A DNA stretch of 64,000 bases from the human T2T-CHM13v2.0 reference genome, Homo sapiens, in the NCBI GenBank assembly GCA_009914755.4, contig CP086569.2:10432001-10496000 (forward strand), given 5' to 3'. A program made the translations under genes and the position numbers. Position 1 is the stretch's first letter. The number at the start of each line of letters is the position of its first letter. Positions 2,070-33,610 of this stretch are shown piece by piece. Below the pieces are notes generated by a model. That model saw nothing but the letters and a program-made list of their open reading frames with translations. It did no database searches and was not told the DNA's origin.

Positions 2070-2420
<351 letters not shown>

Positions 2421-2796
2421 GACAAAATCCATATAATCATTTCAATTATGCTAACAATTTTTGATAAAATTTAATATTCTTTAATAACAAAACACTTTGA
2501 AAACTGGGTATGGAATGAACATAACCTCAACATAATAAAAGTCATATATGACAGACCCACAGCTAGCATCACACTAAGTGGGGAAAAACTAAAAGCCTTT
2601 ACTCTAAAATCTGGAAGATGACAAGAATGTCCACTTTTACCACTGTTATTCAACATAATGCTGAAAGTCCTATCTGGAGCAATCAGACAGGAAGGAGAAA
2701 GCAATAAAATGCATCCCAGTTGGAAAAGAAGTCAAATTACCTTTTTTTTTTTGCCAATGATAAAATCTTATATTGGAAAAAGCATAAATACTCCTC

Positions 2797-5237
2797 TGAT
2801 AGGGTTTGAATGTGTGTCCCCTCCCCAAATCTCATATTTAAATGTAATTCTGAATGATGGAGATGGGCCTGGTGGAAGGTGATTTAACCATTGGGATGGA
2901 TTACTCATAAATGGCTTAGCACCATCCCATTTGGTGCTATCCTCATGATAGTGAGTGAGTTCCCATAAGAACTGCTTAGTTAAAACTGTGTAACAACTCT
3001 CCCCTCTGTTTTTTGCTCCTGCTTTTTGCCCTGTGATGTGCAAGATTCTGCTTCAACTTCTGCCATGACTGCAAAATTCCAGAGACTTCCCCAGAAACAT
3101 ATTCCAGTACTATGTCTTCTCCTCAGCCTGTAGAATCATAAGCCACTTAAACCTACTATGTAAAAAATAAATTATCTAGTCCCACTCTCATAGTGATGGA
3201 AAAATAGCTTAATACAGAAAATTGGCACCAAGGAATGGAAAATGGTTATAAGAATAACCCAAAATGTGGAATCAGCTTCGTAATTGGGTAAACAGATAGA
3301 AGTTGGAAGAGTTTGTAGGATTCAGAAGACAGAAAAATGATGGAAAGTTGAGATTTTCTTAGAGACTGGTTGAATGTCTGTGACCAAAATGTGGATAGTG
3401 GTCTGGACAGTGAATGCCGGGCTGAGGTCTCAGATGAAAACTAGAAACTTATTGGGACAGAAACAAAAGTCATGCATGTTGTCTTAGCAAAGTGGTTGGC
3501 CGAATTTCTGTCATGCCCTAGGGATATAGAAAAGTGTGAATTTGAAATTGATGATCTAGGGTTTCTGTTGGAAAAATATCTAAGCAGCAAAGCATTTGTG
3601 ATGTGGCCTGGCTGCTTCTAACAACCTATGTTCACATGTTCCAGCAAAAAAAATAAAAATAAAATAAGTAGTAACTTATACTTACAAAAGAAGCATAGTG
3701 TAAATGCTTGAAAACTTTGCAGCCTAGTCATGTGGCTGAACTCGAAAAAGCTTTTATAAGAGGAACTCAAGCAGGACATGGGTCAATCACTTGTTAGAGA
3801 TATTTGTATAACCTAAAAAAAAAGCAAGTCTTGATAGCCAAGACAATGGGAAAGAGGAATTGAAGGCATTTTAGAAATCTAAAAAGCAGCCCCCCATCAC
3901 AGGCCCTGAGGCCTGAAAGAAGAGAATAGTTTCTGGGATCAGGCCTAGGACCTGCTGCCTTGGGTAGCTTTGGAACAAGGCTCCCTACATCCTGGCCACT
4001 GCTTCAGGTCCAGGTGTAGCCCAAATTGACCCATTTAAACTCCAGTCACTGGTTCAGAAGGTGCAAGTCGTAACCTTGGTAGCTTCCATGTGGTGTTAGG
4101 CCTGTGGGTTTACAAAAGCAAGTAGTTGAGACTTGGGAGCCTCCACTATTATTTCAGAGGATGTATGAAAAAGCCAGGGTGTGAAGGCAGAAGCATGCTT
4201 CAGAGGTGGAGCCCTCATGGAGATCCTCTACTAAAACAATGGAGAAAAGAAATGTAGTGTGACAGTCCCCAGGGAGGCTCCCAACTAGGTCATGGCCTAG
4301 TAGATCTGTGAGGAGAGGATCACTGTCCTCCAGACTCCAGAATGGTAGATCTAGCTACAGCCTGCATCTTGCAGCTTGAAAAGCCAGAGGCACAGAATGC
4401 CAGCCCATGAGAGCAGCTGTGAGGGCTGAACCATGCAAAGTCACAAGGTAGAATCTTCCCAAGGCATTAGTGTTCCCTGGAAATGGGACAGAGAGTCAAA
4501 AATAAGTATTTTGGAGCCTTACAATTCAATAACTGCCCTTCTGGGTTTCAGACTTTCATGGGTCCTGTGGCCCCTTTCTTTTGGCTCATTTCTTCCTTTT
4601 AGAATAGGAGTGTTTACCCAATGCCTCTGTCTCATTTGTATCTTGGAAGAACTTAACTTGTTTTTTTATTTTACAGGCTTATAGGAGGAAGAAATTAGCT
4701 TTGTCTTAGATGAGACTTTTGACTTTTGAGTTAACGCTGAAATTAGTTAAGACATTGGGGATTATTGGGAAGTCATGATTGTATTTTGAAATATGAGAAG
4801 GATATGAGATTTGGAATGGCCAGGGGCAAAATGATACAGTTTGGATGTGTATTCCCACCAAAATCTTATATTGAAATATAATCCTCAATGTTGGAAGTGG
4901 GCCTAGAGTGGAGGTGATCGAATCATGAGGGCAAGATTTACATGAACAGTTTGGCATCACTTCCTTTGGTGCCATTCCCACAATAGTAAGTTTTCATGAG
5001 AGCTGGTTATCTACAAGTGTGTGTTGCACTTCCCCCCTGCCCTCACACTTACCATGTGATGTGCAAACCCCAGATTTATTTGTCACCTTGTCAGTTGTCA
5101 GAGGCTTCCCCAGAAGCAGAAGCCAGCACAATGCTTTCTGTACACCCTGTAGAACCATGAACTGATTAAACCTATTTTCTTTATAAATAAACCAGTCACT
5201 GATTACTTTTTATAGCAATATGAGAATGGCCTAATAC
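2797..5237 (+). mobile_element. Full-length ERVL-MaLR element (MST-type) with both LTRs (5' LTR ~2797-3190, 3' LTR ~4831-5237) and ~1.6 kb internal region, nested in the old L1
   Basis: Both ends carry MST/THE1-like LTR sequence (tgatagggtttgaatgtgtgtcccctccccaaatctcatat... and atgatacagtttggatgtgtattcccaccaaaatcttatattgaa...), each ending ...ataaat(a/t)a...ctaataca. L1 ORF2 sequence resumes on both sides. Confidence 0.75.
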
Positions 5238-5588
5238 ATCCACAAAAACTATTAGAAGTAATAACTTGAGTAAATTTGCAGAATACAAAATCAACATACA
5301 CAAATCAGTAGGATTTCTATATGTCAATACTCAACAAACTGAAAAAGAATTCAAAAATATAATACTATTTACAGTAGCCACAAATAAAACAAAATGTGTG
5401 GGAATTTACCAAATAAAAGTTCTCAACAATTAAAACTGTAAAACACTGATAAAAGAAATGAAAAAGGACCCAAAAATTGGAAAGATATTTTTATGTTCAC
5501 AGATTGGAAGAATCAGTATTTTTAAAACACCTCCATACAATCCATAGCAATCTATATATTTCATGCCATCTCTATCAAAATAACAGTC

Positions 5589-5888
5589 CAGGGACAGTGG
5601 CTCATGCCTGTAATCCCAGCACTTTGGGAGGCCAAATTTGGTGGATCATGAGGTCAGGAGTTCAAGACCAGCTTGGCCAACTTGGTGAAACCCATCTCTA
5701 CTAAAAATAGAAAAAAATTAGTCAGGCATGGTGGCGGGTACCTGTAATCCCAGCTACTCAGGAGGCTGAGGCAAAGCATCGCTTGAACCCAGGAGGTGGA
5801 GGTTGCGGTGTGCCGAGATCACATCACTACATCACTCCACTCCAGTCTAGGTGACAGAGCAAGACGCCATCTAAAAAAAAAAAAAAAA
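5589..5888 (+). mobile_element. Alu inserted in the old L1
   Basis: CCAGGGACAGTGGCTCATGCCTGTAATCCCAGCACTTTGGGAGGCC... with a poly-A tail. Confidence 0.9.
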
Positions 5889-5912
5889 GAAGAAGAAGAA
5901 GAAGAAGAAGAC
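5889..5912. repeat. (GAA)8 microsatellite on the Alu tail
   Basis: gaagaagaagaagaagaagaagaa directly after the Alu poly-A. Confidence 0.9.
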
Positions 5913-6141
5913 ATTCCTCACAGATATAGAAAAAAAAATTCTGAAATTTTTACGGAAACATCACAAAACACCATAATAGTCAAAGCTATGCTGAGTATAT
6001 AAAACAAAACTGGAGGAATTCCATTACTGGTTTTAAATTACACTACTAAGTTATAGTAATTAAAACAGCATGATACTAGCATTAAAACAGATGTAAAGAC
6101 AGATGGAATGAAGTACAGACCTTAGAAACAAACTCATACAG

Positions 6142-6565
6142 CTAAATTAATTTTCAACAAAAGTGCCAAGAACATACAATAAAAAATAAGACAGTTTTTG
6201 TAATAAATAGGGGAGGGAAAACTGGCATTCTGTGTGAGGGACAAACATTCAGACCCTCATAGCAGTGTTCTGGAATCCTATGTGAGGGACAAACATTTGG
6301 ACCACAGCAGGAGTGTTCTGGAATCCCCTGTGAGGAATAAACATTCAGACCCTCGTAGCAGTGTTCTGGAATCCTATGTCACAAACATTTAGAACCCAGC
6401 AGCAGTGTTCTGGAATCCTATGCGAGGGACAAACATTCAGAACCTCGTAGCAGTGTTCTGGAATCCTATGGGAGGGACACCTAAATTAATTTTCAACAAA
6501 AGTGCCAAGAACATACAATAAAAAATGAGACAGTTTTTGTAATAAATAGGGCTGGGAAAACTGGC
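6142..6565. repeat. Composite repeat inside L1 ORF2: an 85-bp direct duplication flanking a ~50-bp x5 minisatellite
   Basis: 6142-6226 and 6481-6565 are near-identical (ctaaattaattttcaacaaaagtgccaagaacatacaataaaaaat[a/g]agacagtttttgtaataaatagg...gaaaactggca). Between them are five ~50-bp units (...tgtgagggacaaacattcagaccctcgtagcagtgttctggaatccta...). Confidence 0.8.
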
Positions 6566-6900
6566 AAACCATAGGCAGAAGAATAAAACTAGAACCTTAT
6601 TTCTTGCCACTTACAAAAATCAAATGAAAAGGAATTAAAGACTTAAACCTAACGCCTCAAACCATCAAACTTTTACAAGAAAACATTGGGAAAACTCTTT
6701 AGGGCATTGGTTTGGGCAAAAACTCCTTAAATAATGCCCCAGAAGGACAGACAACCAAAACAAACATGGACAAATGGGATTACAGGAAGTCAGAAAGCCT
6801 TTTTAATGTGAAGGAAACAAGAAACAAAGTGAAGAGAAAATCCACAGAATGGGAGAAAGTATTTGCAAATTATCCATCTGAAAAGCAATTAATAGCTACA

Positions 6901-7230
6901 TGATATGGTTAGGATTTGTGTCCCCACCTAAATCTCATATTGCATTTTAATCCCCATATGTTGAGGGAGAGACTTGGTAGAAGGTGATTGGATCATGGGG
7001 GTGGTTTCCCCCATGCTGTTCTTCTGATAATGAGTGATTTCTTATGAGATCTGATGGTTTTATAAGGGACTTTTCCCCCTTTGCTTCACATACATGCTCT
7101 CTGGCCTGCTGTCATTTAAGAGGTGACTACTTCCCCATGTGCCATTATTGTAAGTTTCCTGAGGCCTCCCCGGCCATGTGGAAATGTGAGTCGATTAAAC
7201 CCATTTCCTTTATAAATTACCCAGTCTTGC
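6901..7230 (+). mobile_element. Solo MaLR LTR (THE1/MST-type)
   Basis: tgatatggttaggatttgtgtccccacctaaatctcatattg...gccatgtggaaatgtgagtcgattaaacccatttcctttataaattacccagtcttgc. L1 ORF2 resumes after the adjacent Alu. Confidence 0.75.
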
Positions 7231-7515
7231 CAGGTGCCGTGGCTCATGCCTGTAATCTCACAACTTTTGGAGGCTGAGGCAGGTGGATCTCGAGGTCAGG
7301 AGTTCAAGATCAGCCTGGCCAAGATGGTGAAACCCCGTCTCTACTAAAAATACAATAATTAGCCAGGCATGGTGGCAGGTGCCTGTAATCCCAGCTACTC
7401 AGGAGGCTGAGGCAGAGAATTGCTTGAATCAGGAGGTGGACGTTGCAGTGAGCCGAGATTGCACCACTGCACTTCAGCCTGGGTAAAAGATCAAGACTTC
7501 ATCTTAGTAAATAAA
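7231..7515 (+). mobile_element. Alu
   Basis: caggtgccgtggctcatgcctgtaatctcacaacttttggaggctgaggcaggtggatc... Confidence 0.9.
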
Positions 7516-9071
7516 TACGTAACACAATCTCAGGTATTTTTTTATAGGAGTGCAGAAACAGACTAATACACTACAATATATTGAGTTCAAAAAATTCCAT
7601 AGAAAAAAGTAATAACCCAAATAAAGTGTGGACAAAAAATTTAAATAGACATTTATGAAAAGAAGACATACAAATGTGAAACAGGCAAATGAAAAGGTGC
7701 TCCACATTACTGATCATCATAGAAATGCAGATCAAACCCAAAATGAGATATCATTTCACCCCAGTTAAGGTGGCTTTTATCCACAAGTCTGTGAAAAACA
7801 AATGCTGGTGAGTATGTGGAGTGAAGGGAATCCTTGTACACTGCTGTAGGGAGCACATTTAAGGACAGTTTGGATGTTACCGATATAACTAAAAATAGAG
7901 CTAGTATATGGTCCAGCAATCCCACTGCTCAGTATATGCCTACAAGAAATAAAATTGGTAAATCAAAGACCTATTGGCACTCTTATGTTTGCTACAGCAG
8001 GGTTTATAATAGCCAAGATTTGGAAGGAACCTACATGTCCATCAACAGATGACTGAATAGAGAAAGTGTGGTACATATGCACAATGGAGTACTATTCAGC
8101 TCTAAGAAAGAATGAGAGCCTGCCATTTGCATTAACATAAGTGGAACTGAAAGTATGTTAAGTGAAATGTGAGGCGGAGAAAGACAAATGTCACAAGTTC
8201 TCACTTATTTGTAGGTGCTAAAATTCAAAACAATTGGTGTCATAGGGATAGAGATTATAAGGATGGTTACGAGACTGGGAAGGGCAGGGAGGGAACAAGG
8301 GGATAGTGGGGATGCTAAATGGGTAAAAAACAATTGTTAGAAAGAAAGAATAAGACAGCATTTGATAGCACAACAGGGTGATTATAGTCAAAAATAATTT
8401 AATTCCACATTTAAAAAAACTAAAAGAGTATAATTGGATTGTTTATAACACAAGCTATAAATGCTTGAGGGAACAGATACCCCGTTTTTTATTATGTATT
8501 ACTCATTGCATGACTGCATCAAAGTATATCATGTACCCGCATAAACATATACACCAACTATGTACCCACAAAGATAAATTAAAAATTGAAATTGAAATTA
8601 AAATTAAAACCAAAGGGAGGAGAGTATAATGAGGCATGTGTGACCCATGGCTTGAACTAGCTTTTCAGGTTAATTTTGGAATGTCCCTATCCAAGAAGAG
8701 AGGTCCATTTAGTCAACAGGGGTTTAGAAATTTATTTTTAGTTTATAAATGGAAAAAAGAAGGATTTTTAATACCGAGTCATAGTTCTCAGTCAATCAAT
8801 CCCTGCAGGGAACCCTGTTCTTTACTCTGGAGATAAACACTCGTTTTCTTTTCCATGAAATAACACCACATTTCAAAATGAAGGGAAACGTCTTGAAACT
8901 AAGAGGTACAGCCTTATTAAATTTGATTTGGTGTCCATTGTAATTAATTTAATCACATGTGTTCTATAGTTTGTCCTCAGTCTTCCCCTAGTTTAGGCCC
9001 ATGATCTGTTAAATTTGCTCAGCTCCCTGCTCAACAGCAGGAAATCAGAATTATTTAAAAACCTCATTGTG

Positions 9072-9420
9072 GCTAGGAGTGGTGGCTCATGCCTGTAATC
9101 CCAGCAATTTGGGAGGCCAAGGTGGACAAATCGCTTGTTGTCAGGGGTTTGAGACCAGCCTGGCCAACAGAGTGAATCCCCATCTCTACTAAGGATACAA
9201 ATATTAGCTGGGTGTGGTGATTCATGTCTGTAATCCCAGCTACTTGGGAGACTGAGGCAGGAGAATTGCTTGAACCCGGGAGGTGCAGGTTTCAGTGAAC
9301 CAAGATGGTGCACTGCACTCCAGCCTGGGCAACAGAGCAAGACTCTGTCTCAAAATAATAATAATAATAATTAATAATAATAATAATAATAAAATAAGTA
9401 AAAATAAAAATCTCATTGTG
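9072..9420 (+). mobile_element. Alu with (AAT)n / A-rich tail
   Basis: ggctaggagtggtggctcatgcctgtaatcccagcaatttgggaggccaaggtgg... and the tail aataataataataattaataataataataataataaaataag. Confidence 0.9.
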
Positions 9421-11517
9421 TTTCAAACCAAATTTCTTTTCAATACCAACTGTACCAACTTGCATATTAACTACAATCATTTTGTTTACTTTATATCCAA
9501 TCTTGAGAAATCTTTGAGGACTAATTTCACTCTTTTCTGCCATTTTGCTAAACGTACCAAATGCCATCAAACAAAACGCACAAAATTCCTGAGAAATACA
9601 TTTTCTCCCTGAGGAGTAGACTTGCTGTGTTAGAGGAACTCATGGTTACTTAGCTTCTAGTTTAATAAACATGACTAGAATATTCTATCTTAATATGAGT
9701 AGCTAGGTACTCATAAGACATCCAGAAGGTTAATGTTCATGGTCTGAAAATAGTCACAATTGTTAACTGGCCACAAATTACAATTGCAGAATATTTGTGG
9801 TCATACAAGACATCTTCCACCAAGCCTGAAAAATGTATAAATGTCCTAGGAGTGCAGCATTTTTTTGTAAGGATATTATTAATGAGCTAGCTTAGGTCAA
9901 TGGGTTAATGGTTATTGTTAAAACCACTAGTCCAGACTTTAGTGACTACATCTGCACCTTCCAAGTTTAATTATAACTCTTTCTGTTTATAGTTACTTAT
10001 AAGTAGAGACACTAACAAAAGACAATGCGTTCCTGCTCTTGTTTTCTGAGGAAGTCCAACTCTGTAATGGAGTAATTTCTAATAAATTTGCTTCTTTCAC
10101 TGTGCTCTCTGACTCACCTCAAATTTTTTCCTGCAGAAGACCTAAGAATACTACTTTGTGGTCTATATCAGGACCCTCTTTTCCAGTGATATCTTTCAAC
10201 AACACCATGAACGGACACAATCCACACGGAATCAATCAGCTGACACCTGGCAAGTGGTCTGTTTTTTAGAGTTGTGAAGCCATTCTGGTGGGCAAGAATG
10301 ATTATCCACTATTATCATACTCAGATTAGAGGCCAAGCCCACAGGGTTAGAGGCCCTGGGGAATATTGAGAAGAATGGATTTGGCTAAACAAGATGTTTG
10401 CCACTTTCTCTTTTTGGACTGTCCACCTTGTGCTCTCTGTCCCTCACCTGAGTGCTCTACATCTTGTCACCTTTCTGCTCACCGCCTCTGCTTTGTAGTA
10501 GCCTGGAGGCTGCCCCAGGACAGAGGCCCCAAATAGTTTAGCTTTTACTTTCCTCAGCTATCCTCTGACTCTTAACTGACTGCTAGTTTAATTTGCCACT
10601 GGTCCAAGTGACACTGAAAAAAAGAATTGTCTTGGAACCCAGTATTTTTGTACCTTAATTATTCGAAAAGATCAGCAGTAACCTCACCATCATTATGACT
10701 AGAAATTGAAATATGGTATTTAAGAGCTCTACATGATAAGATCAGATATGCCTGTTTAGTGACAGCCTCTTATATGACAACCCTCTGCAAACAATTACCC
10801 TCTAGATGGAGAACATGAGACTTTTTCTTAACAGTTTTCTCTCATTTCTTAGCCATAATGCCATCTTTGATGAGCTGGTTTAGGGCAGCTGGACCCTACT
10901 TTCTAAACCCAGCATATCACTTTTTTCCTGAGTTTTGTCAGTTTTGTCATAGCAGTGTGAAAATGGAGTAATACATTACAATATACAAATTACAGCCTTC
11001 CCATTTCCCCTGTTTGATCTGACTCCTATTTTGCAGCTTAATTTGTTTTATAGAAGAGAAACTAAGAGGGAGGAAATACATTATATACAGGCTTCTCTGA
11101 TGCTTGGTCAGGATAAAAAATTAAAATGGGCTTCTATATGTTTGATGGAGGAAAAGATAAAATAGGGATGGCACGTTATTGATTACCGTTTCAAAGCAAG
11201 TGCCTCTTAATATTGGGCTTTTCTTAGCTGGGGCTGAACTCCCCCTGCCAGTCCAAGCACCCCATAAGAACACAGTCAGATTCCTTCCAGTTCTAGTGAG
11301 GTGTGCAACATGTTATAAATTTCTTCTAGTTTTCCTGGGTTATCTAGTTTCTGGTCATCTTCTTCTCCCTGCCCTTTGAGTCCTGTCTTACATACATACC
11401 CCACTCTCGAAACACCCGATCTTCACCAGAACAACATGCAGTGGGACCCCTTATCAGCTGACAAAGTTGAATGTTTGCCCTCTCTGGGAAGAGAGAGATG
11501 ATAATAGGGACACTATA

Positions 11518-12419
11518 TTGAAGGGGTGGCCTGTCTCTCCACACCTGTGGGCATTTCTCATCAGGTGGAATGAGAGACTTGTGAAAAGAGACGCAGAGAC
11601 AAAGTATAGAGAAAAAGTGGGCCCAGGATACCAGCGCTCAGCATACGGAGGACCTGCGTTGGCACCAGTCTCTGAGTTTCCTTAGTATTTATTGATCATT
11701 ATCGGGCATTTCTCAGAGAGGGTGATGTGGCAGGACAATAGGGTAATAGTGGAGAGAGGGTCAGCAGGAAAACGTGAGCAAATGCCTCTGCATCATGAAC
11801 AAGGTAAAGAAAAAAGTACTGTGCTTTTGATGTGTATATACATAAACAACTCAATGCCTTAAACAGCAGTATTGCCTCCAGCATGTCTCACCTCCAGCCC
11901 TAAGACAGTTTTCCCCTATCTCAGTAGATGGAATATACAATCGGGTTTTACACTGAGATATTCCATTGCCCAGGGACGAGCAGGAGACAGATGGCTTTGT
12001 CTTATCTCAACTGTAAAGAGGCCTTCCTCTTTTACTAAAACTCCTCAGCACAGACCGTTTACAGGTGTCAGGCTGGCAGATGGTCAGTTCCTTCCCTTCC
12101 CATGAGGCCATATTTCAGACTATCACATGGGGAGAAACCTTGGACAATACCCGGCTTTCCTAGGCAGAGGTCTCTGTGGCCTTCCGCAGTGTTTTGTGTC
12201 CCTGTGTACTTGAGAGTAGGGGGTGGTGATGACTTTTAACAAGCATGCTGCCTTCAAGCATTTGTTTAGCAAAGCACATCCTGCATAGCCCTAAATCCAT
12301 TAAACCTTGAGTCAACATAGCACATGTTGCTGTGAGCACAGAACAGAATGGAGTGTCTTATAGCTACTTCTTTCTACATAGACACAGTAACAGTCTGATC
12401 TCTCTTTCTTTTCCCCACA
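11518..12419 (-). mobile_element. Solo HERV-K (HML-2 family) LTR5-type LTR with 6-bp target-site duplication CTATAT
   Basis: The reverse complement starts tgtgggaaaagaaagagagatcagactgttactgtgtctatgtagaaagaagtag... and ends ...cccacaggtgtggagagacaggccacccc, collinear with LTR5. It is flanked by ctatat (11512-11517) and ctatat (12420-12425). CpG sites are largely decayed to TG/CA. Confidence 0.8.
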
Positions 12420-15158
12420 CTATATATGTATATGTACACTTTTCTACATCTGAATTAGCCATATGCAAGGAAAAACTAAAACAGTTTTCAGAGATTCCAG
12501 GAAAATTCACAGACAAATTTAAAAGGCTAACCTTGATGTATGATCTGACCAGGCAGGATTTGCATATATTTATGTTTACCTGCTGCATGATAGAAGAGCA
12601 GTGCATTATGGGAGTGGCTAGAGCACATGCTAATAGGGTGGCAGCCTGCAACCAGAGGCATGGCACCTATCAAGTAGGAGGCTCAGCAGTGCCTGACTAG
12701 GACCCAAAAGAGGACTAGAATCTAGACAAATAAATTAGGAAGAAAGTGGGATATATAGAGAAAAATTATGATCGTTTGACTCCGTGAAGGAATTTTAAAA
12801 AAGTGTGATACAGCTTTTTAATTTTTATAAAGTCTGGAAAATTACTCAGGAAAAAGATGAAAACCTAGCCTTATTACAAGGGTGGATAATTTAGACCTTG
12901 AGGAAATACACTAACACTGACCCTGACTCCAAAAAGGGACAGGCATTGCTAGGAGCTTAATTTATAGTGGCGGTCCCCTGATATATGCAGGAAGCTGCCA
13001 AAAGCAGTCTTAGGCTTCCAGATTCCCATGGATCAGACTTTAGACTTGGATTTTGCAGTTTTCCATCACAGGGATTGGGCAGACAAAACATAAAATAAAG
13101 AAAATCTTCCAAGAGTCCCAGCTTCTAGCTGCAGCCTTGTGCTCTCCACCACTTCAGAGGCATCCCCTTAACCCCTGGCCCTCACAGAGGAAGTGAGAAG
13201 GTGAAAGTCCCAGTTTGTGCCTCTGGGCCACCGTACCTTGGATGTAAATCAATGTGCCTTCTGTAGGAAGGTCAGCCACTGCCAAAGGAAATGCACTGTG
13301 CTTCCAAGGGAGCCATCATCAGAGCCCAGCAGACTCAAAAGTGGCAGGGCCTGACACTTCCTACCTCCACTCCCATTGGACTATTAGCTACGGAGAAATG
13401 GAGGAGCCTCAGGTGACTCTTGAAGTAGAAGGTAGGAGTATTAACTGCTTATTAGGTGTGGGAGCATATTACTCTGTCCTGATTCAATACAATGGGCTAC
13501 TGTCTTCTCATGATGGACAAGCCCCAAAACACTCCTTTTTGTATCTTCTAAGTTGTCCTCCAGAGCCTCTAGGTTTCTCACCTGCCTTTTTAGTAATTGT
13601 CCGATTGCCTGACCTCTTACTGGGGAGAGGTTTATTGACTCAGGAGACAAAGTCATGGTCACCTTCACAGATCATGAAGCATAGAAAGTGTTACTTTTGT
13701 TCCTGACCCCTCAGGGGAAAAAAGAAGTTAAGAATGAGCTGTCACATTTACCACCTGAGGTGTTGTCTCAAGTAAATCTTGAGGTTTGGGCCACACAGGC
13801 TCTGGGAAACGCACTAAACACCTCCCCCATTCAAATCCAACTTCAGCCTAGTGCTCCTCGACCTCAGAAGAGACAATACAGTTTAAGGCAAGAAGCATGG
13901 GGGAAATTCAACCCCTTATTGCCAAATTCTTGCCATATGAGTTATTAAGGCCATGTGAGTCTCCTTACAATACTCGCATGTTACCAGATAAAAAGCCTAA
14001 TGGCACGTACAGATTTGTCAGAACCCTTAGAGCATTAAGAAATGCAGTTGTCTCCATACACCTCATTGTCCGCAATACTTACCAAGTCCCAGGTGATGCA
14101 AGCTAGTTTACATTCTTAAATCTGAAAGATGCACTTTTCTGGATCTCAATGCATCCAGATTCATAATATGTTTGCCTTTGAATGGACTGATCCAGATATT
14201 CATTCAGCCTCAAAACTAACCTGGACAGTCATCTCTGAAGGGTTCTGGGATAGCCCCCACTTATTGGGAAATGCTCTAGTTAAGGACTTAAGAAATCTGC
14301 AATTGGAAAAGGACAAAATTATTCAGTATGTAGGTGACTTGCTCATTGCTAGCCCAACTAAAGAAGACTTATAATAATAATGTTAAGTTGGGAAATTTCC
14401 TGGGAACTTGCAGATATATTGCATCACCATACAGGGCTCAGATTTTGACCGAAAGACTTAAATATTTGGAATCTGTCTTAACCTCTGGAACTGATCAACA
14501 TCCCTAGAAGATAAAAAAGTTATTTTAGTCACCCAAGGGTCCCTGTCCAAAAAATGACTGTGGGCTTTTTTAGATGGCTGGGTACTGTTGCTTATGGGTG
14601 CCCAGATTTGGGCATATAGCCAAGCCTTTATATGATACACTAAAGGGAAAGATTTAGAGCTCCTAGAATGTAATGACAACTGCAAGCAAACCTTCAATAC
14701 TCTCAAGGAGAAATTGGGCTCTGCTGCAGCCGTGGGAGTCCCCAAGTTGGATGAACTATTTTTTCTTTATGTGACCAAAAAGCAAAGCACAGGCCTTGGG
14801 TAATCTTGTCCCAAAACTGGGGGACATTCCAAGGCCAGTAGCCTAATTTTCTAAGCAGGCAGACCAGGTGGCCTCAGGGTGGCCTTTGTGTCTTAGAGAT
14901 ATTGCTGCTACCACTTTTCTAGCAGGCAAAGCTAATAAACTAACATTAGAACAGCACCTACAGGTTTTTGACCCCACATCAAGGGAAGGTAATCCTAGAA
15001 GCTAAAGAGCAGCAATGGATAATAGGAGAACATTTATGAAAGTATCAGGCTTTATTGCTAGACACTCCAGACATAACCCTTAAAGGCTGCCAAACCATAA
15101 ACCCAGCTACTTATCTGCCAGTGTCCTCAGGAGCTTCTAGCCTTTCTGACATACAGGT

Positions 15159-15806
<648 letters not shown>

Positions 15807-17439
15807 CAGGTTATGAGACAAATTTATTCTAGCAGGCCAGACTTAAGAGAGATGAGCCCTTTGACCATCCTAAGGAAGAGTGGTTAACAGATGTAAATTG
15901 TTTTATGCATCAGGAAAACGGGAGGGGTAGATATGCTATTAGTAGTCAGCTCAAGAGAATCAAGGCACAAGTCTTGCTGGTCTCGAACTCAGCTCGAAAA
16001 GCTGAGTTAATTGAAATTACTCAGCCCCTGTATTTGGGAAAGATTTAAAAGTTAACATTTACACTGATTCCAAGTATGACTTTTTAGTGCTTCATGATTA
16101 TGCTGCAATTTGGAATGGGTAGGGGCTCCTGACCCCCAAGGGCTTTTCCCTACAACATCATTCAGATTTTGAGCTTGTTAGAATGCTGCTTTGCTGCCAA
16201 AAAGTGACTATAATTAATTGCAGAGGACATCAAAAGAGAGACTGACCATATAAAAGGAAATGCCCTTGTAGATGAAGCAGCCAAGGCCCCTGCACTGAAA
16301 GGGTCAATGAAGCTTATGGGCGTGCTGGCAAGCATACATAGAACTGAGCCAGAACACTCTGAAGAAGAAGAAAAATGGGCCAGGGATTTCATTTCAGTCC
16401 AGGGCCCCTGTGGCTGGCTGAATGATAGTAATAAATTACAAATTCCAAGTACCAATTGTAGGAATATAATTCAGCACTTTCATGATTCTTTTCACCCTAG
16501 AAGGGATTCTTGGTTTCTGTCAATATCTCATTTGTTTATAGGGGTAAATCTTTTCAAGACACCAAAACAGGTGACTCAGCCCTGTGAGCTCTGTGCCTGA
16601 CATGACCCAAATGGCCAGCAATTTTCTCCTTCTCCAGGTAAACCTGTCCAAAATTGAGAAACCTATCCAGGTGAGAACTGGCAACTCTAATTTACTTAGA
16701 TACCTTTCTGCAGGAGATTCAAATATTTGCTAACGCTTACTGATAACTTCACTGGTTAGATCGAGACATTCCCCACCCCATCTGAAAAATGTTTACCAGA
16801 AGAAATAACTCCTCAGTTTGGGTAATCTAAAAGCCTGCAAAGTGGCAATGGCCCATCTTTCACAGCTGGTGTATCCCAACACCTATCCTCAGCTTTAAGA
16901 ATCCAATATTACCTTTACTCTGTGTGCAGACTGCAGTCCTCTGGAAAGGTGAAAGGGCTAATCCTACTCTAAAGAAGACTCTAGCTAAATCAGATGCCTG
17001 ACTATCTCTAACACCCATAGCTTACTGTGGGTTTGAACTGCTCCAAAGTAAAACTTATAATTAAATCCTGTTGAGTTAACATTTGGAAGACCTTTCCTAA
17101 GCACAGGTCTCCTAATAGATGAAAAGACTCAACAATTACAAAAATATGTCATCAATCTAGGACAGGTGCAAAGGCACTTTGTGAATATGGAAACAAGAGT
17201 CTTCCCCTACCACATGGGAGGAAAATTCAGTTTCAGCTCAGCTAGGGATTTAGTCTTACTAAAGATGTGGGAGGAAGTTTTCCAGTTGACCAGCTTTCCC
17301 CAACTTGGAAAGGACCACAGCAAGGACATCGGAGCTCTCCAACAGACGTTCAACGCCAAGGGATTAACAAATGGGTACACCTGTGTGGAAGTAAAGCTGT
17401 TGCTTATTCTGGGAGCCGAATCTGAGGCTGACGGATGTG

Positions 17440-17539
17440 GGTGCGGGGCTATTTCAGCGTTGGTGGAGGGCGGGCTGGGTAGCTGCCCATCTGCTCCTCC
17501 TTCTCACGTTTCTCCTGCCGCTCTAATCCCGCCTTGGCC
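17440..17539 (+). promoter_or_regulatory. CpG-retaining 5'UTR / proximal promoter region of the beta-tubulin-like exon
   Basis: GC-rich with many intact CpGs (gacggatgtgggtgcggggctatttcagcgttggtggagggcgggctgggtagctgcccatctgctcc...ccgctctaatcccgccttggcc) immediately 5' of the ATG. No canonical TATAAA. Confidence 0.35.
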
Positions 17540-17596
17540 ATGAAGGAAATCGTGCTCACGCAGGCCGGGCAGTGCGGGAACCAGATTGGCGCCAAG
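17540..17596 (+). pseudogene. Beta-tubulin exon 1 (TUBB8/TUBB4Q subfamily-like) with intact GT splice donor; isolated gene fragment
   Basis: ATGAAGGAAATCGTGCTCACGCAGGCCGGGCAGTGCGGGAACCAGATTGGCGCCAAG|gt encodes MKEIVLTQAGQCGNQIGAK. The beta-tubulin N-terminus is MREIV(H/L)(I/T)Q(A/I)GQCGNQIGAK, and the LTQ variant is characteristic of TUBB8/TUBB4Q. Exon 1 ends at codon 19 as in TUBB genes. No exon-4-like ORF occurs anywhere in the window. Confidence 0.8.
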
Positions 17597-17707
17597 GTTG
17601 TATTTGACTCCCTAAAATTTAAAATTTTGTATGAGAGAAAAATACCTCAAAGTCAAAAGTCAACAGACTGGGGAAATAGATCTGCAACATACATGACAGA
17701 CAAAAAG

Positions 17708-17775
17708 CTAATTTGGGATATATATATACACATATATATACACACACACATATATATACACACACATATACATAC

Positions 17776-17810
<35 letters not shown>

Positions 17811-17830
17811 GAGATAGATAGATATATGTA
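17708..17830. repeat. Compound (TA)n/(CA)n/(TACA)n microsatellite
   Basis: atatatatacacatatatatacacacacacatatatatacacacacatatacatacatacatataaatatatatac...; followed by poly-T at 17838-17862. Confidence 0.85.
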
Positions 17831-19179
17831 AATATCCATTTTTTTTGTTTTTTTTTTTTTTGGTGAACAAGTGAAAGGAAGTTTATTGTGTTTGGTACAT
17901 ATATCTGTTTCTGTTTTCCATACAAGCACATCAACCACAAGACTTACAGAGCACAATGGAATAATAATCACAAAATATTTAAAGATATAAAAAGACCTAA
18001 CAATTCCAATCATAAGCAAGTCCCTCATACAGGACATAAACCACAAAAGCAACAAGACATGTACGGGAAAAGTGCTTCTTAAGATCATTTTATTATCATG
18101 TATAAACTCTTTCTGATTTCAATATAAGTTTAAGAACTCTTAAATCGACGAAGGAAAGAACTAAATTTGTAAGTTATAATTTATAAAGATTATCAGGGAC
18201 AATGCTAAGAAAAAATAGAAAAGAATGAATTTGCATACATATTCATGAATTCTTACACAGTTGTCTTCTTTAACAATGGAGCAATGAAAATACAATCGGA
18301 ATAACTGGTGCTTTTTGAAAAGCTGATTGTAAATGGTCAACTGCACATTTGAATCAATTACTATGATACATGGCAAATAATAGAGAGCCTCCAAAATGTG
18401 TGAGGCATATTTATTTCTTTTGATTTTTTCATTTATGAACATGAATGCTTATTTTACTTATAATCTTCTGATTGGATTGATCAAGAAAGACATTAAACTT
18501 GGTTGAAGAAGGTAGTCAAGAGTCTGCACAACTGGTCTTTCTTAGAGCAAAGTTACTCAGGAATAGTTTCTGAGTTCCCTCTCCTGGGCTCATAATTAGT
18601 GGCAGCAGAGAGGGAAGAACAATCTAGAAGCCAGCAGTATCAGAATGAGAGTAAGAGCACCCTAGCTCGCTCACAAACACTCCAAAAGCTAAGACTGCCC
18701 TCCTGACCATGAGAATATATCTGCTTCCTGTGATAAAATACCAAAAATCTCAGTTTCTCTCTGCCATTGTTACTTGTAATAAACTGCATCCCACGGACCC
18801 AGTTTAGCCCCCTGATCAAAAGCATGGCTACAGACTAATTCAGTGAATGGGCCCATGAGTTCTTGTAACATACCTGAACATTCAGACATATTGTTTCCAT
18901 TTTTGCATTGTCTGAAATCTTCTGTCAGTGTAGCAAGTGTACCTTAACTGCTAAATAGCTTACCCCACTTAGAAAAATAACTAAGGGCATGGAACTCCCA
19001 ACATTCAATAAATTCTGATAGCTGTGAATGCTGTTTTCACCTTCTAATCACCAGTACAAAAAAATTCCACACTCTAGACTTAAATCTTACATCAACTGTC
19101 CTTCAGAAAATTATTTAATCCTTCTGGGACTCTAATTTCTGATCTTTTTTTAAAATTTATTTTTTTATTTTCTTTTTTT

Positions 19180-21432
<2,253 letters not shown>

Positions 21433-23450
21433 TAACACCATTTAAAAAAAATACCGTCCTTTCCCCATTGAACAGTGTTGACGCCCTTGTTAAAAATCAT
21501 GACCATGTTTTTTGGTTCTTTATTTCTATTGCATTGGTCTTTGTGTCTGTCTCTATGCTGCTACAGCATTGTTTTGCATACTGAAGTTTGAAACCAGAAG
21601 ATGTTACTCTTCTAACTTTGTCAGTTTTTAAGATTGATTTGGCTGCTTGGGGTTTTTTGAGATTTCAACTGAATTTTAGAATAGGTTTTTCTATTTTTGC
21701 AAATATTGGAATTTTTATAGTGATTTTACTGAATCTGTAGATGACTATAGATAACAATGGCCCCTTGACAAGGTTTTGTCTTCCAGTCCATAAACACTTG
21801 ATGTCTTTTCATTTATTTGTGTCATCTTTAATACTTTCATGCCATGTTTATAGTTTTTGCTGTACAGGTTTTTCATTTCCTTGGTTAACTGGGTTTCTAC
21901 GTATTTTATTCTTTTGATGTTATCATACATGATACTGTTGCCTTGATTTCTTCTTCAGATAGTTTATTGTTATTGTAGAAATACAACTGATTTTTGTGTA
22001 TTGTTTTCTATCCTCCAGCTTTGCTGAATTTTATTTATTGCGTCTGAGAGTTTATCTCACGGAAACTAAAAGATTTTTAATATATAAGGTTATGTCATCT
22101 TCAAACAGATATTAAATAGAAGTAGTAAAAGCAGGCATCCTTGTTTTTGCTCTTAGGGTAAAAGCTTTCAGTCTTTCACCATGTTAGCTGTGTTTCTTTG
22201 TTTTGTTTTGTTTTTTGTACAGCATTATGTAAAGTGTTTTCTTTCTTTTTATAGCTTATTAAGTATATTTTATCATGAATGTGCATTAAATTTTGACAAA
22301 TGCTTCTTTTTCTTTGCTTAAGATGATCACATGCGGGTTTTTTCCTTATGTTAATGCGATATTACACTGATTTTCATGTATTGGAACATACTTTCATTTC
22401 AGGAGTCAATTATACTCATTCATAGTGTATAATCCGTTTAATGTACTGCTAAGTTTGAGTTGCTGGTATTTTGTTGAGGATTTTTGCATCAGCATTTATA
22501 AGGGATGTTTGTTTGTAGTTTTCTTATGGTGCCTTTTTCTGTCTTGGTGCCAGGGTAATACTGGACTCACAGAATAAGTTAGAAAAAATTACCTCCTCTT
22601 CAACGTTTGAAAAAGTTTGAGAAAAAGTGGTGTTAATTCTGTTTTAAACATTGGGTAGAATTTAACAGTGAAGCCATCTTGTCCAAGCTTTTCTTTGTTG
22701 CTGAGTTTTTGATTACTGATGTAATCTTCCTGCTGAATCTCCTTGCTGAATAGGTTTATTCAACTTTTCTGATTCAGTCTTAGTAGGTTTTTTTTTCCTA
22801 GGAATTTGTTCATTTTATTTAGGCTATTCAATTTTTTAGTGTATAGTTCCTTATGTTACTCTCCTACACCCCTTTTTTACTCCAAAAATTTGTTAGTAAT
22901 ATACCCATTTTATTTTTGAGTTTAGTAATTTGAATATTCCCTTTCTTTCTTAGTCAATCTAGATAAAATTTTGTCACTTTTGATATTTTTCAGAGAACAA
23001 ACTAGGTTGTGTTGATTTTTGATATGGTTTTTCTATTCTCTATTTCACTTATTTCCACTGCAAATTTTATCTTTTTTTTAATTTTTGCTAGTTTTAGTTG
23101 TCCCTCTTTAATAGTCCCTCTTTTTCTCTCTGTTTTTAGTTCCTTAGGAGTAAAGTTGTTGATTTGGTATCTTATTTTTTATAATCATTTATAGCTATAA
23201 ATTTTTCCCTTATGGTACCGTTTTTGATGTATCTCCTAACTTTTGGTATTTCATGTTTTTAATTTGTCCCCATATATTTGCTCTTGTGATTTCTTCTTTT
23301 TCCATCCTTGAGAGTTTCATACCTATATTTTTAGATATAAAATGTGTAACCTACAAAATTTTCTTGATTTGTTTGTTTTATTTGTTGTAAGTTTTTATTT
23401 CAGAATTAAATATGTGTATCAACATTTGTTATGTTCTCATAAACTTTGAA
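21433..23450 (-). mobile_element. Older L1 (L1PB/L1MA-like) ORF2 fragment
   Basis: Reverse-strand sequence such as ...tcagcatttataagggatgtttgtttgtagttttcttatggtgcctttttctgtcttggtgccagggtaatactggactcacagaataagt... is collinear with L1 ORF2 but much more diverged than the L1PA copies. Confidence 0.6.
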
Positions 23451-24555
23451 ATACATGGAGATTCCTGGTCCACATATGTAAGTCTCTATATGAATATTAT
23501 TTTGAAGCATTTAACCTTCTATTTTAATATTTCAAAGGTCTAGATGAAATTGAGACTTTGGTTTCTGAGATGAAATAATGCTAGGTGACTGAGAAATGCT
23601 TAAAAATTTGCCAAAACTTAAAATTAAGTTAAAGTTTACCTTCAAGATTCAACCTGAATAAGTCGCCCTGTATTGCTGGTAATAAAGAATAAGTCTTTAA
23701 TGATATAAAAGGAAACTTCAGATAATTTTTCCCCAGTTGACATATAAATTAAAAGATATAAAAAATTTTTATGGCCTTATGCATTTTTTACTTTAGAATT
23801 CCAAATTTTTCTCGTTAAAATTTTTCCCAACAGATTCCTGTGTATTTGAAAGACAAATAATTTTTTAGTTGAAATGCTTAAGCAGTTAAATAAGGCCATG
23901 AAAATTTCTTGAACTTGTGGGAATCCATGAGAAAACCTGACATTATGTTCTATTCTCTTGGAAGGTAGAATTATCGTTTGACTTCTGTTTTGCTGACAAG
24001 AAATGTCCTGAGCAAGGCTACCTGGGAAAATGACCTCACACATGGAAAACGTTGGAGCCCATCTGTTTCCAATGTGCTGTTTTCCGAAAATTAGGGAAGT
24101 TCAGTTTTCCCTTTGACACTCTCTCTTACTACCAATCCCAATGCCAGGGCTGTCCTGCTTCTACAAGTGACAATGACAAATATGGGCCTGAAGAAAGATG
24201 AGCTGATGGCATTCCCAGCTTATTACCTCTCCTTGGGGTCCTTATCTCACATACATGAATTCAACTCATAAACTCAGCTGGGTGAGGATCTGTTATTCAG
24301 CTACATAAGAAGTGATTGCTTAAGACTCGGGTGTGTGGTGAAATGAGGCAGAATTTTCTCAATGGAATGTTGGGAGAATTTTCTCATTATTACCATCTTA
24401 CTATCACTAAATCATAGCTAAAATGAAGACATTGTTCAAGAAGAAATAGAAATGTAACCTTATGAGGACATAAATTTAGAGATTTGTGGAGAGCTCTTCA
24501 TAATTTTATGGTGTTGTCTTTGAGCTGGGATTATAGTTGACATTTCATTATAATA

Positions 24556-29100
<4,545 letters not shown>

Positions 29101-33349: not shown

Positions 33350-33610
33350 CATCCCTGCACCAGTGGCCCACGGCTAGCTCCCTCATCTGCACTCCAGCGG
33401 CTCATGGCCAGCTCCCTCACCTGCACCAGTGGCTCTTGGCCGGCTCCCTCCCCTGCACACCAGCGGCTCACGGCCGGCTCCCTCCCCTGCACACCAGTGG
33501 CTCATGGCTCACTCCCTCCCTTGCAAACCAGCAGCTCACGGCCTGCTCCCTCCCCTGCATTCCAGCAGCTCATGACCAGCTCCCTCACCTGCACTCCAGT
33601 GGGTGGCCCA
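33350..33610. repeat. Minisatellite, ~40-bp unit x ~6.5
   Basis: Units such as ccagcggctcacggccggctccctcccctgcaca / ccagtggctcatggctcactccctcccttgcaaa repeated in tandem. They give the repetitive spurious ORFs 33211-33636 and 33347-33748. Confidence 0.85.

What the first reader, a model, noticed from the sequence alone, without database searches (positions are those of the whole stretch)
17166..17600. Beta-tubulin exon 1 with intact donor fused directly to ERV integrase C-terminal sequence; CpGs retained
- The class I ERV internal region ends at about 17400 with a recognisable integrase C-terminus (WKGPQQGHRSSPTDVQRQGINKWVHL... for WKGPYTV..IHASHVK).
- With no LTR and no env, the sequence continues into a CpG-retaining GC-rich stretch and then ATG-AAG-GAA-ATC-GTG-CTC-ACG-CAG-GCC-GGG-CAG-TGC-GGG-AAC-CAG-ATT-GGC-GCC-AAG|GT. 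This is a TUBB8/TUBB4Q-type exon 1 with the exon-intron boundary at the family-typical position.
- No exon 2-4 equivalents are evident. No roughly 350-aa tubulin ORF appears on either strand, and the following 1.6 kb is AT-rich, then an L1PA.
- One possibility is that the TUBB8-subfamily promoter region natively derives from, or abuts, an ancient ERV. The other is that this is a patchwork junction of a segmental duplication.
- Intact CpGs in 17440-17600, contrasting with CpG-decayed surrounding repeats, suggest either recent origin or an unmethylated CpG-island-like state.
Basis: partly seen in the sequence, partly recalled or inferred. Interest (0 to 1): 0.7.

Follow-up and report, generated by a model that had tools for sequence, protein, structure and literature searches.

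The report
Gutted copy of TUBB8 tubulin duplicon
This is the leftover promoter and first exon of an old duplicate of the primate egg-cell tubulin gene TUBB8; a 6.5-kb deletion removed the rest of the gene, and the retroviral sequence beside it sits next to every TUBB8-type gene examined, so the locus is an ordinary dead gene fragment.

Summary
Window 17540-17596 encodes MKEIVLTQAGQCGNQIGAK, a TUBB8-type beta-tubulin exon 1 followed by GT. About 135 bp upstream, a decayed gamma-type ERV pol ends in its integrase C-terminal domain (17291-17398). No other tubulin exon exists in the 64 kb.

It is not a private patchwork. Window 2415-25494 is colinear, at 88-92% identity, with a chimpanzee locus carrying a full four-exon TUBB8-like gene. 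Chimpanzee, macaque and capuchin gene-bearing loci all share the same ERV/tubulin junction (17399-17406), so it predates the New World/Old World monkey split.

Homology to the rodent TUBB4B locus starts at window 17407 in all four sequences and covers the CCAAT box, TATA box, 5'UTR and exon 1. The junction is therefore the 5' breakpoint of the duplication that created TUBB8 from TUBB4B. The core promoter is tubulin-derived, not ERV-derived.

In the window, homology stops 4 nt into intron 1 and resumes 6.5 kb (chimpanzee) or 7.6 kb (macaque) downstream, with TG microhomology at the join. That is a simple deletion.

The CpG patch is an eroding promoter island. It lost 6 of 14 conserved CpGs, and its CCAAT box is mutated. 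The copy diverged about when hominoids and Old World monkeys split, so it is not recent.

The parts
12419..17398 (+). Decayed gamma-type (class I) ERV internal region, gag-pro-pol, interrupted by an Alu at 15368-15643. It is truncated about 30 codons before the end of pol and has no env or 3' LTR.
   Evidence: Pfam RVT_1, RNase_H, Integrase_H2C2, rve and MLVIN_C on stitched frames. RT best matches are XMRV/MoMLV RT at E about 1e-36. No LTR pair and no env TM were found.
17291..17398 (+). Integrase C-terminal (SH3-like) domain remnant, ...WKGPQQGHRSSPTDVQRQGINKWVHLCGSKA. It is the last ERV-derived sequence.
   Evidence: MLVIN_C profile positions 18-53 of 56, E=0.0087, below Pfam's cut-off. The same peptide lies upstream of the chimpanzee and capuchin TUBB8-like genes and appears in the chimpanzee model P0110.
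17399..17406 (+). ERV/tubulin junction, the 5' breakpoint of the founding TUBB4B-to-TUBB8 duplication.
   Evidence: It is bracketed by the end of the MLVIN_C match (17398) and the start of homology to vole TUBB4B (17407 = L004 5964). That start is the same L004 position for L001 (9868), L002 (9869) and L003 (9868).
17407..17539 (+). TUBB4B-derived core promoter and 5'UTR remnant. The CCAAT box is mutated to CGAAT (17417-21, within GAGCCGAATC at 17413-22). It also holds a TATA-like CTATTTCAG (17449-57) and a GC box GGGCGGG (17468-74). This is the CpG-rich patch.
   Evidence: Alignment with vole TUBB4B (GAGCCCAATCC...GTATATAAG) and three TUBB8 loci.
17540..17596 (+). TUBB8-type beta-tubulin exon 1 (19 codons, open).
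17597..17600 (+). First 4 nt of intron 1 (GTTG), ending at the deletion junction. TG microhomology is shared with the distal side.
   Evidence: Alignments A1 and A2. Chimpanzee proximal side reads CAAGGTTG|GCAGCC. Chimpanzee distal side reads ACTGATG|CATTTGACTC. The window reads CAAGGTTG|TATTTGACTC.
17601..17755 (+). Distal side of the deletion. This unique old LINE-like segment lies about 4.4 kb 3' of the TUBB8-like stop codon in chimpanzee and about 5.5 kb 3' of it in macaque. It runs into a (TA/CA)n microsatellite.
   Evidence: It is 88.6-89% identical to L001 16600-16739 and 87-88% identical to L002 17665-17820. It is single-copy in each locus and has no other copy in the window.
2415..25494 (+). 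Extent of colinearity with the 22-kb chimpanzee TUBB8-like locus, that is, the duplicon copy to which the finding belongs. This is a minimum extent, limited by the size of the fetched locus.
   Evidence: window 2415-10574, 14882-17600, 17599-17738 and 21418-25494 match L001 1-7348, 7349-10061, 16600-16739 and 18002-22163.

Best explanation
The feature is the 5' stump of one paralogous copy of the TUBB8 (class VIII beta-tubulin) segmental duplicon. The proposed history has five steps.

1. A gamma-type ERV was already present at the target site.
2. Before the platyrrhine/catarrhine split, a roughly 4.5-kb piece of the TUBB4B locus was copied next to it. The piece ran from 133 bp upstream of the ATG to about 2.4 kb past the stop codon and included remnants of the 3' neighbour FAM166A. 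It joined the ERV just after the integrase C-terminal domain and created the TUBB8 ancestor.
3. The composite (ERV + TUBB8 + flanks, at least 23 kb) was dispersed to several chromosome ends at about the time hominoids and Old World monkeys split.
4. In the copy seen here, a single end-joining deletion with 2-bp microhomology removed about 6.5 kb, from intron 1 position +5 to 4.4 kb beyond the gene. Only the core promoter, 5'UTR and exon 1 (about 195 bp of tubulin-derived DNA) remain.
5. The stump has since decayed. The CCAAT box is mutated, 6 of 14 conserved CpGs are lost, and the extended splice donor is altered. A retrocopy, an L1 and an LTR12 have inserted nearby.

It most likely has no function. 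Steps 2-4 are inferred from sequence comparison, and the colinearity and shared junctions are shown directly. Lack of function is an inference.
For: - Colinearity: the window is colinear with the chimpanzee locus L001 on both sides of the gap. It is colinear with macaque L002 on both sides and with capuchin L003 upstream.
- Shared junction: the ERV/tubulin junction is identical in four sequences from three primate lineages.
- TUBB4B parentage: homology to the vole TUBB4B locus (flanked by SLC34A3-type and CMI2B-like genes) starts at the same base in all four sequences. In the gene-bearing loci it runs to L004 about 10316, through FAM166A-like exon remnants.
- Missing segment: the deleted segment is absent from the whole window.
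- Distal segment: the distal 140-bp segment is unique and at paralogue-level identity.
- Age: non-CpG K2P to the chimpanzee copy is 0.066 and to the macaque copy 0.086. The three catarrhine copies form an unresolved trichotomy, with 9:9:7 shared derived sites.
- Decay: the CCAAT change and the CpG losses are shown.
- Known family: the family is known to be subtelomerically dispersed at 91-95% identity (PMC2323237, block 8 'TUBB4q'). L001 and L002 lie 0.4 and 0.1 Mb from the ends of their chromosome records.
Against: - The genomic address and species of the window are unknown. I could not check the orthologous site in other primates, so the deletion is polarised only by parsimony.
- Downstream of the 140-bp segment the window and L001 differ again: window 17739-21417 against L001 16740-18001. 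More than one rearrangement therefore occurred there.
- The human TUBB8 locus itself could not be fetched.
- The CpG-loss contrast (6/14 against 2/10 and 1/9) rests on small numbers.
- No expression or methylation data were available, so residual promoter activity is not excluded.
Confidence: 0.88

Rival explanations
1. The copy was born truncated. Position 17600 is a breakpoint where two separately transposed duplicon pieces were joined (a patchwork junction), not a later deletion.
For: Subtelomeric and pericentromeric duplications are mosaics (PMC2323237). There is a second discontinuity at 17739-21417.
Against: Both sides of the junction lie in the same order and orientation as in the chimpanzee and macaque loci. 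The far side is only 140 bp before the next discontinuity, and further colinear sequence resumes at 21418. A single 6.5-kb deletion explains this with one event, and the junction has typical end-joining microhomology.
Confidence: 0.07
2. The ERV pol/integrase sequence was exapted as the promoter or proximal regulatory region of the TUBB8 family, and the stump here is a retained ERV-driven promoter.
For: Everything upstream of -133 in every TUBB8-type locus examined is ERV. TUBB8 expression is oocyte-restricted, unlike most beta-tubulins (PMC10598138). Parent promoter sequence upstream of the CCAAT box was lost at the birth of the gene.
Against: - The CCAAT box, TATA box and GC box are inside the TUBB4B-derived block.
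- Macaque deleted the 100 bp of ERV adjoining the junction and has an Alu about 160 bp upstream of it, next to an intact ORF.
- The proximal ERV is no better conserved than distal ERV between copies and is CpG-depleted (o/e 0.14-0.30).
- It is internal pol sequence, not an LTR.
- The open literature searched does not describe such a role.
Confidence: 0.12
3. The orphan promoter plus exon 1 is still active. It would be a germline-unmethylated CpG islet that starts a non-coding or chimeric transcript, spliced from the retained GT.
For: The ATG, the 19-codon ORF and the GT are intact. The patch just meets the minimal CpG-island criteria (200 bp, GC 0.605, o/e 0.72). The TATA-like and GC boxes are retained.
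Against: - CCAAT is mutated to CGAAT.
- Donor positions +5 and +6 were changed from GC to TA by the deletion.
- More conserved CpGs were lost than in intact copies, mostly as TG/CA.
- The patch is not better conserved than the flanking ERV (0.88 against 0.91-0.97 identity to L001).
- The only read-through ORF is 81-83 aa of microsatellite-encoded junk and is not on record in any assembly gene call.
Confidence: 0.08
4. Chance resemblance of a short GC-rich ORF to tubulin.
For: Only 19 codons are involved.
Against: Homology at 88-92% DNA identity extends over more than 20 kb to loci that carry full tubulin genes. tblastn gives E=2.9e-5.
Confidence: 0

Closest known systems
TUBB8 (class VIII beta-tubulin) and its dispersed subtelomeric paralogues and pseudogenes (TUBB8P series, TUBB7P/TUBB4Q; van Geel et al. 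2000, cited in PMC12376486; 'block 8' of PMC2323237)
   Same: The exon 1 has the family LTQ signature and the exon 1/intron 1 boundary falls after codon 19. The CCAAT/TATA core promoter and the ERV integrase flank are the same. There is at least 23 kb of colinear duplicon sequence at 88-92% identity, which fits the 91-95% reported for the family.
   Different: It lacks intron 1 through exon 4 and 4.4 kb of 3' flank. The CCAAT box is mutated. It carries private LTR12, retrocopy and L1 insertions. With only 57 coding nt left, it may not be annotated as a TUBB8 pseudogene. I could not check this.
TUBB4B (class IVb beta-tubulin, beside FAM166A/CIMIP2A), the inferred parent of TUBB8
   Same: Homology covers 17407-17598: the CCAAT box, TATA box, 5'UTR and exon 1. 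In intact TUBB8 loci it also covers the whole gene and about 2 kb of 3' flank.
   Different: Sequence upstream of -133 is replaced by ERV pol. The protein signature is VLTQ instead of VHLQ. In the window everything after intron 1 position +4 is gone.
Gamma-type (class I) endogenous retrovirus internal regions
   Same: The pol domain order is RT, RNase H, integrase (zinc finger, core, MLV-type C-terminal domain). The RT is closest to MLV/XMRV.
   Different: It has many stops and frameshifts and Alu and LTR12 insertions. No env or 3' LTR is present. The family name is undetermined because no Dfam/Repbase was available.
Duplicated (non-processed) pseudogene fragments in primate segmental duplications
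   Same: It arose by DNA-level duplication, retains promoter and intron sequence, and was disabled by a deletion.
   Different: Nothing unusual. The breakpoint only 4 nt past the exon boundary is a coincidence that makes it look like a cleanly excised exon.

Membership tests
TUBB8-family duplicon (beta-tubulin class VIII gene or pseudogene) | Exon 1 encoding M-R/K-E-I-V-L-T-Q-x-G-Q-C-G-N-Q-I-G-A-K, with the intron after codon 19 | tested here: met
   17540-17596 plus GT. It is 18/19 identical to the commonest primate TUBB8 N-terminus.
TUBB8-family duplicon (beta-tubulin class VIII gene or pseudogene) | Flanking non-coding sequence colinear with other family loci | tested here: met
   Window 2415-25494 against chimpanzee L001 at 87-95% per segment. 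Macaque L002 and capuchin L003 are also colinear.
TUBB8-family duplicon (beta-tubulin class VIII gene or pseudogene) | Exons 2-4 (tubulin GTPase and C-terminal domains) present | tested here: not met
   There is no tblastn or blastn match in the 64 kb. It is therefore a gene fragment, not a gene or a full-length pseudogene.
Gamma-type (class I) ERV provirus | pol with MLV-like RT, RNase H and integrase | tested here: met
   Pfam RVT_1, RNase_H, Integrase_H2C2, rve and MLVIN_C. Apart from RNase_H these fall below Pfam's curated cut-offs because of decay. RT against XMRV/MLV gives E about 1e-36 to 1e-37.
Gamma-type (class I) ERV provirus | Paired LTRs and env | tested here: not met
   There are no direct repeat pairs other than Alu/L1 in window 1-30000. 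The provirus is 3'-truncated at the junction.
CpG island | At least 200 bp, GC at least 0.5, CpG o/e at least 0.6 (Gardiner-Garden and Frommer criteria, from established knowledge) | tested here: met
   17400-17599: 200 bp, GC 0.605, o/e 0.72. It only just qualifies, since adjacent 200-bp windows fail.
CpG island | Unmethylated in the germ line | not testable with these tools
   No methylation data were available. Indirectly, 6 of 14 CpGs conserved in two intact paralogues are lost here, 4 of them as TG/CA.
Processed pseudogene (retrocopy) of a tubulin mRNA | Intronless, with a poly(A) tail and no promoter sequence | tested here: not met
   Promoter (CCAAT/TATA) and intron 1 nucleotides are retained and no poly(A) follows the exon.

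The most novel reading that the evidence does not exclude
The founding junction, which cut the TUBB4B promoter at -133 and replaced everything upstream with ERV pol sequence, may be what rewired a ubiquitously expressed tubulin into the oocyte-restricted TUBB8. The exon-1-only stump here would then be a still-active, germline-hypomethylated orphan TSS of that type, producing an unannotated transcript.
Probability: 0.08. Interest if true: 0.55.

Novelty: new member of a known kind. Interest (0 to 1): 0.22.

Why it matters
- The locus itself matters little. It is a dead fragment of a known, widely dispersed primate tubulin pseudogene family. It could be mistaken for an exon-capture or ERV-fusion event, and it can attract mis-mapped TUBB8 exon 1 or promoter reads in infertility sequencing.
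- The comparison has a modestly useful by-product. It supports a concrete origin for TUBB8, a gene mutated in human oocyte maturation arrest: a roughly 4.5-kb DNA-level copy of TUBB4B that kept only 133 bp of sequence upstream of the ATG, abutting a truncated ERV pol since before the New World/Old World monkey split.
- I found no description of this origin in the searchable literature, but it could readily be seen in a genome browser.

Tried and rejected
- Pfam on raw DNA references failed because of stop codons. I used stitched frames with X for stops instead.
- Two siamang TUBB8 isoforms (P0043, P0099) are not on record as genes.
I reached TUBB4B through a vole model, P0091.
- The human TUBB8 locus could not be fetched.
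- A look-up of the junction-spanning 81-aa ORF, meant to find other assemblies with the same deletion, found nothing.
- Search for a 3' LTR and for env TM was negative. I therefore dropped the idea that the tubulin block was inserted inside an otherwise complete provirus.
- Pfam on the decayed chimpanzee FAM166A-like remnants gave no hit, while the vole exons hit CMI2B-like. The link rests on 66-79% DNA homology.
- Literature searches for TUBB8 with ERV, promoter, origin or exon 1 found no description of the junction. The one paper linking ERV1 and TUBB8 reports only a genome-wide expression correlation (PMC8450412). Feng et al. 2016 is not held.
- I considered a processed pseudogene, chance similarity and a copy born truncated, and rejected them (see rivals and membership test).
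- The ERV family name and the chromosomal address of the window could not be determined with these tools.
Full report
**Observation**

The sequence at 17540-17596 reads ATG AAG GAA ATC GTG CTC ACG CAG GCC GGG CAG TGC GGG AAC CAG ATT GGC GCC AAG, followed by GT. A whole beta-tubulin protein, searched by tblastn against both strands of the 64-kb window, matches only here (MKEIVLTQAGQCGNQIGAK, 16/19 identical to TUBB, E=2.9e-5). All other hits are noise at E of 1 or more. Most primate TUBB8 proteins fetched from the protein collection begin MREIVLTQAGQCGNQIGAK, so the window differs at one residue.

Upstream lies a decayed retroviral pol. Pfam finds RVT_1, RNase_H, Integrase_H2C2 (16442-16606), rve (16667-16915) and, weakly, the MLV-type integrase C-terminal domain (17291-17398). 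The RT is far closer to XMRV/MoMLV RT (E about 1e-36 to 1e-37) than to HIV-2, foamy virus or Ty3 RT (E 1e-5 to 1e-7). It is therefore a class I, gamma-type element.

The 200 bp at 17400-17599 have 13 CpGs, GC 0.605 and o/e 0.72. The ERV flank has o/e 0.14. The next 1.5 kb is AT-rich and is followed by an L1 3' end.

**What the locus is**

I fetched three loci that carry full four-exon TUBB8-like genes:
- L001: chimpanzee T2T assembly, 0.4 Mb from the end of a 153.9-Mb record.
- L002: Macaca nemestrina, 0.1 Mb from the end of a 192-Mb record.
- L003: the capuchin Sapajus apella.

The window is colinear with the entire 22-kb chimpanzee locus. The matching blocks are:
- 2415-10574 to L001 1-7348.
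- 14882-17600 to L001 7349-10061 (91.8% identity).
- 17599-17738 to L001 16600-16739 (88.6%).
- 21418-25494 to L001 18002-22163.

Macaque and capuchin show the same upstream colinearity, ending at the same base, 17600. The finding therefore sits inside one paralogous copy of the TUBB8 duplicon. This is the family described as dispersed subtelomeric copies at 91-95% identity (PMC2323237; van Geel et al. 2000 as cited in PMC12376486).

**The ERV/tubulin junction is ancestral**

The sequence ...GTGGAAGTAAAGCTGTTGCTTA|TTCTGGGAGCC... is shared by the window, chimpanzee and capuchin. Macaque has the same right-hand side but has lost the adjoining 100 bp of ERV and gained an Alu about 160 bp upstream. 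A UniRef gene model from another chimpanzee paralogue (P0110) starts QRQGIHRWIHLCGNK|FWEVISD. The integrase tail was misread there as a first coding exon, which shows independently that the remnant lies upstream of a further copy. The junction therefore predates the platyrrhine/catarrhine split.

**What the junction is**

TUBB8's protein resembles TUBB4B (C-terminus ...EEEVA; this rests on my own knowledge). I therefore fetched a TUBB4B locus, bank vole L004, flanked by a Na/Pi cotransporter gene and a CMI2B-like gene. Sensitive blastn shows homology beginning at exactly the same vole base, L004 5964, for the window (17407), L001 (9868), L002 (9869) and L003 (9868).

The alignment shows that the shared block opens with TTCTGGGAGCCCAATC, the CCAAT box. 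It continues through the TATA box, which reads GTATATAAG in vole, CTATTTAAG in capuchin and CTATTTCAG in the window. It then runs through the 5'UTR and exon 1.

In the gene-bearing loci the TUBB4B homology continues through the gene to about 2.4 kb past the stop codon (L001 about 14630, L004 about 10316). It crosses decayed remnants of the 3' neighbour's exons. The vole exons hit Pfam CMI2B-like, while the chimpanzee remnants are recognisable only at DNA and peptide level.

Positions 17399-17406 are therefore the 5' breakpoint of the DNA-level duplication that made TUBB8 from TUBB4B. The core promoter is tubulin-derived, and everything upstream of -133 is ERV pol. No env or 3' LTR is found downstream, so the provirus is simply truncated there.

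**Why exon 1 stands alone**

In the window, homology to the gene-bearing loci ends 4 nt into intron 1. It resumes at a unique 140-157-bp old LINE-like segment. In chimpanzee this segment lies 6.5 kb further on (L001 16600). In macaque it lies 7.6 kb further on (L002 17665). The segment is single-copy in each locus and has no other copy in the window. The missing interval has no match anywhere in the window.

The three sequences at the breakpoints are:
- Chimpanzee proximal: CAAGGTTG|GCAGCC.
- Chimpanzee distal: ACTGATG|CATTTGACTC.
- Window: CAAGGTTG|TATTTGACTC.

The shared TG is 2-bp microhomology typical of end joining. One deletion therefore removed intron 1 to exon 4, the rest of the TUBB4B-derived block and about 2 kb beyond it. 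That the cut falls 4 nt after the exon boundary is a coincidence. It leaves the GT but changes donor positions +5 and +6 from GC to TA.

Further downstream the copy has diverged again. Window 17739-21417, which holds a microsatellite, a minus-strand retrocopy and L1 sequence, stands in place of L001 16740-18001. The region has thus seen more than one event.

**Age and state of the stump**

Over 1687 ungapped non-CpG columns, K2P distances are:

| Pair | K2P |
|---|---|
| Window - chimpanzee copy | 0.066 |
| Window - macaque copy | 0.086 |
| Chimpanzee - macaque | 0.063 |
| Catarrhine copies - capuchin | 0.12-0.15 |

Shared derived sites among the three catarrhine copies split 9:9:7. The copy therefore separated at about the time hominoids and Old World monkeys split, and 'recent origin' is excluded.

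The CpG patch is the remnant of the promoter island. The same 200 bp have 17 CpGs (o/e 0.78-0.81) in the chimpanzee and macaque gene-bearing copies and 5 in capuchin. Of 14 CpGs shared by chimpanzee and macaque, the window keeps 8 and has lost 6, four of them as TG or CA. By the reciprocal rule chimpanzee lost 2 of 10 and macaque 1 of 9. These numbers are small, so the contrast is only suggestive.

One of the window's 'retained' CpGs (17417-18) is new. It was created by the C-to-G change that destroys the CCAAT box. The patch is not better conserved than the ERV flank (0.88 against 0.91-0.97 identity to L001 in 150-column windows).

I therefore read the stump as a non-functional, slowly eroding relic. 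Residual promoter activity cannot be excluded without expression or methylation data.

**Does the ERV act as promoter?**

Three lines of evidence argue against it:
- The recognisable core elements are TUBB4B-derived.
- Macaque has lost the proximal 100 bp of ERV beside an intact ORF.
- The ERV flank is CpG-poor and not specially conserved.

It remains possible that truncating the parental promoter at -133 contributed to TUBB8's oocyte-restricted expression (expression as described in PMC10598138). That is an untested idea. Literature searches found no description of this junction or of the TUBB4B origin.

**Verdict**

The feature is an additional, heavily truncated member of a known pseudogene family, so interest is low. 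The only mildly new element is the reconstruction of how TUBB8 arose.

**Limits**

The species and address of the window, the name of the ERV family and the human TUBB8 flank could not be obtained with the available tools.

Noticed in passing
window 11519-12418: About 900 bp of antisense solo LTR that looks like LTR12 (HERV9 LTR), recognised by eye from memory of the consensus. It is inserted in the leader/gag part of the older ERV. It is absent at the corresponding place in the macaque locus (window 10384-11518 and 12419-14005 abut in L002).
   Followed up: partly
window 17838-19140 (minus strand): A T-run at 17838-17862 is followed by the reverse complement of AATAAA about 20 nt inside. This is the poly(A) end of a minus-strand retrocopy about 1.3 kb long, inserted in the (TA/CA)n microsatellite. 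It has no ORF and looks like 3'UTR only. The parent gene was not identified, and the sequence is absent from the chimpanzee and macaque loci.
   Followed up: partly
window 19147-21445: A young-looking L1 3' end in minus orientation (poly(A) seen as a T-run at about 19147-19186) is followed by a plus-strand L1 ORF2 fragment (ORF 20831-21445). The latter continues into sequence shared with the chimpanzee locus from 21418. This may be an inverted or composite L1 that replaced about 1.3 kb present in L001.
   Followed up: no
L001 13410-14630; L002 13379-14549; L003 12847-14553: The 3' flank of TUBB8-like genes is homologous (66-79%) to the vole TUBB4B 3' flank, including decayed exons of the CMI2B-like (FAM166A/CIMIP2A) neighbour. 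TUBB8 therefore arose from a roughly 4.5-kb genomic copy of TUBB4B plus part of its neighbour.
   Followed up: yes
protein P0110 (chimpanzee UniRef A0A2I3TVP1): This database gene model of a chimpanzee TUBB8 paralogue starts with QRQGIHRWIHLCGNK, the ERV integrase tail, spliced to tubulin exon 2. It is an annotation artefact caused by the ERV flank.
   Followed up: partly
window 10575-14881 against L001 7348/7349: The chimpanzee copy lacks 4.3 kb of the ERV (leader, gag, pro and the start of pol) that the window and macaque retain. This is an independent internal deletion in that paralogue.
   Followed up: no
window 6222-6479 and 33358-33599: There is a 48-bp tandem repeat (5.5 copies) inside the shared duplicon. 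There is also a 34-bp GC-rich minisatellite (7.2 copies) in a GC-rich stretch outside the region compared.
   Followed up: no
L002 9394-9701 and the gap matching window 17300-17398: The macaque TUBB8-like locus has an Alu about 160 bp upstream of the ERV/tubulin junction. It also has a 100-bp deletion of the integrase tail immediately next to the junction. The predicted ORF is still intact, so the proximal ERV appears dispensable.
   Followed up: partly
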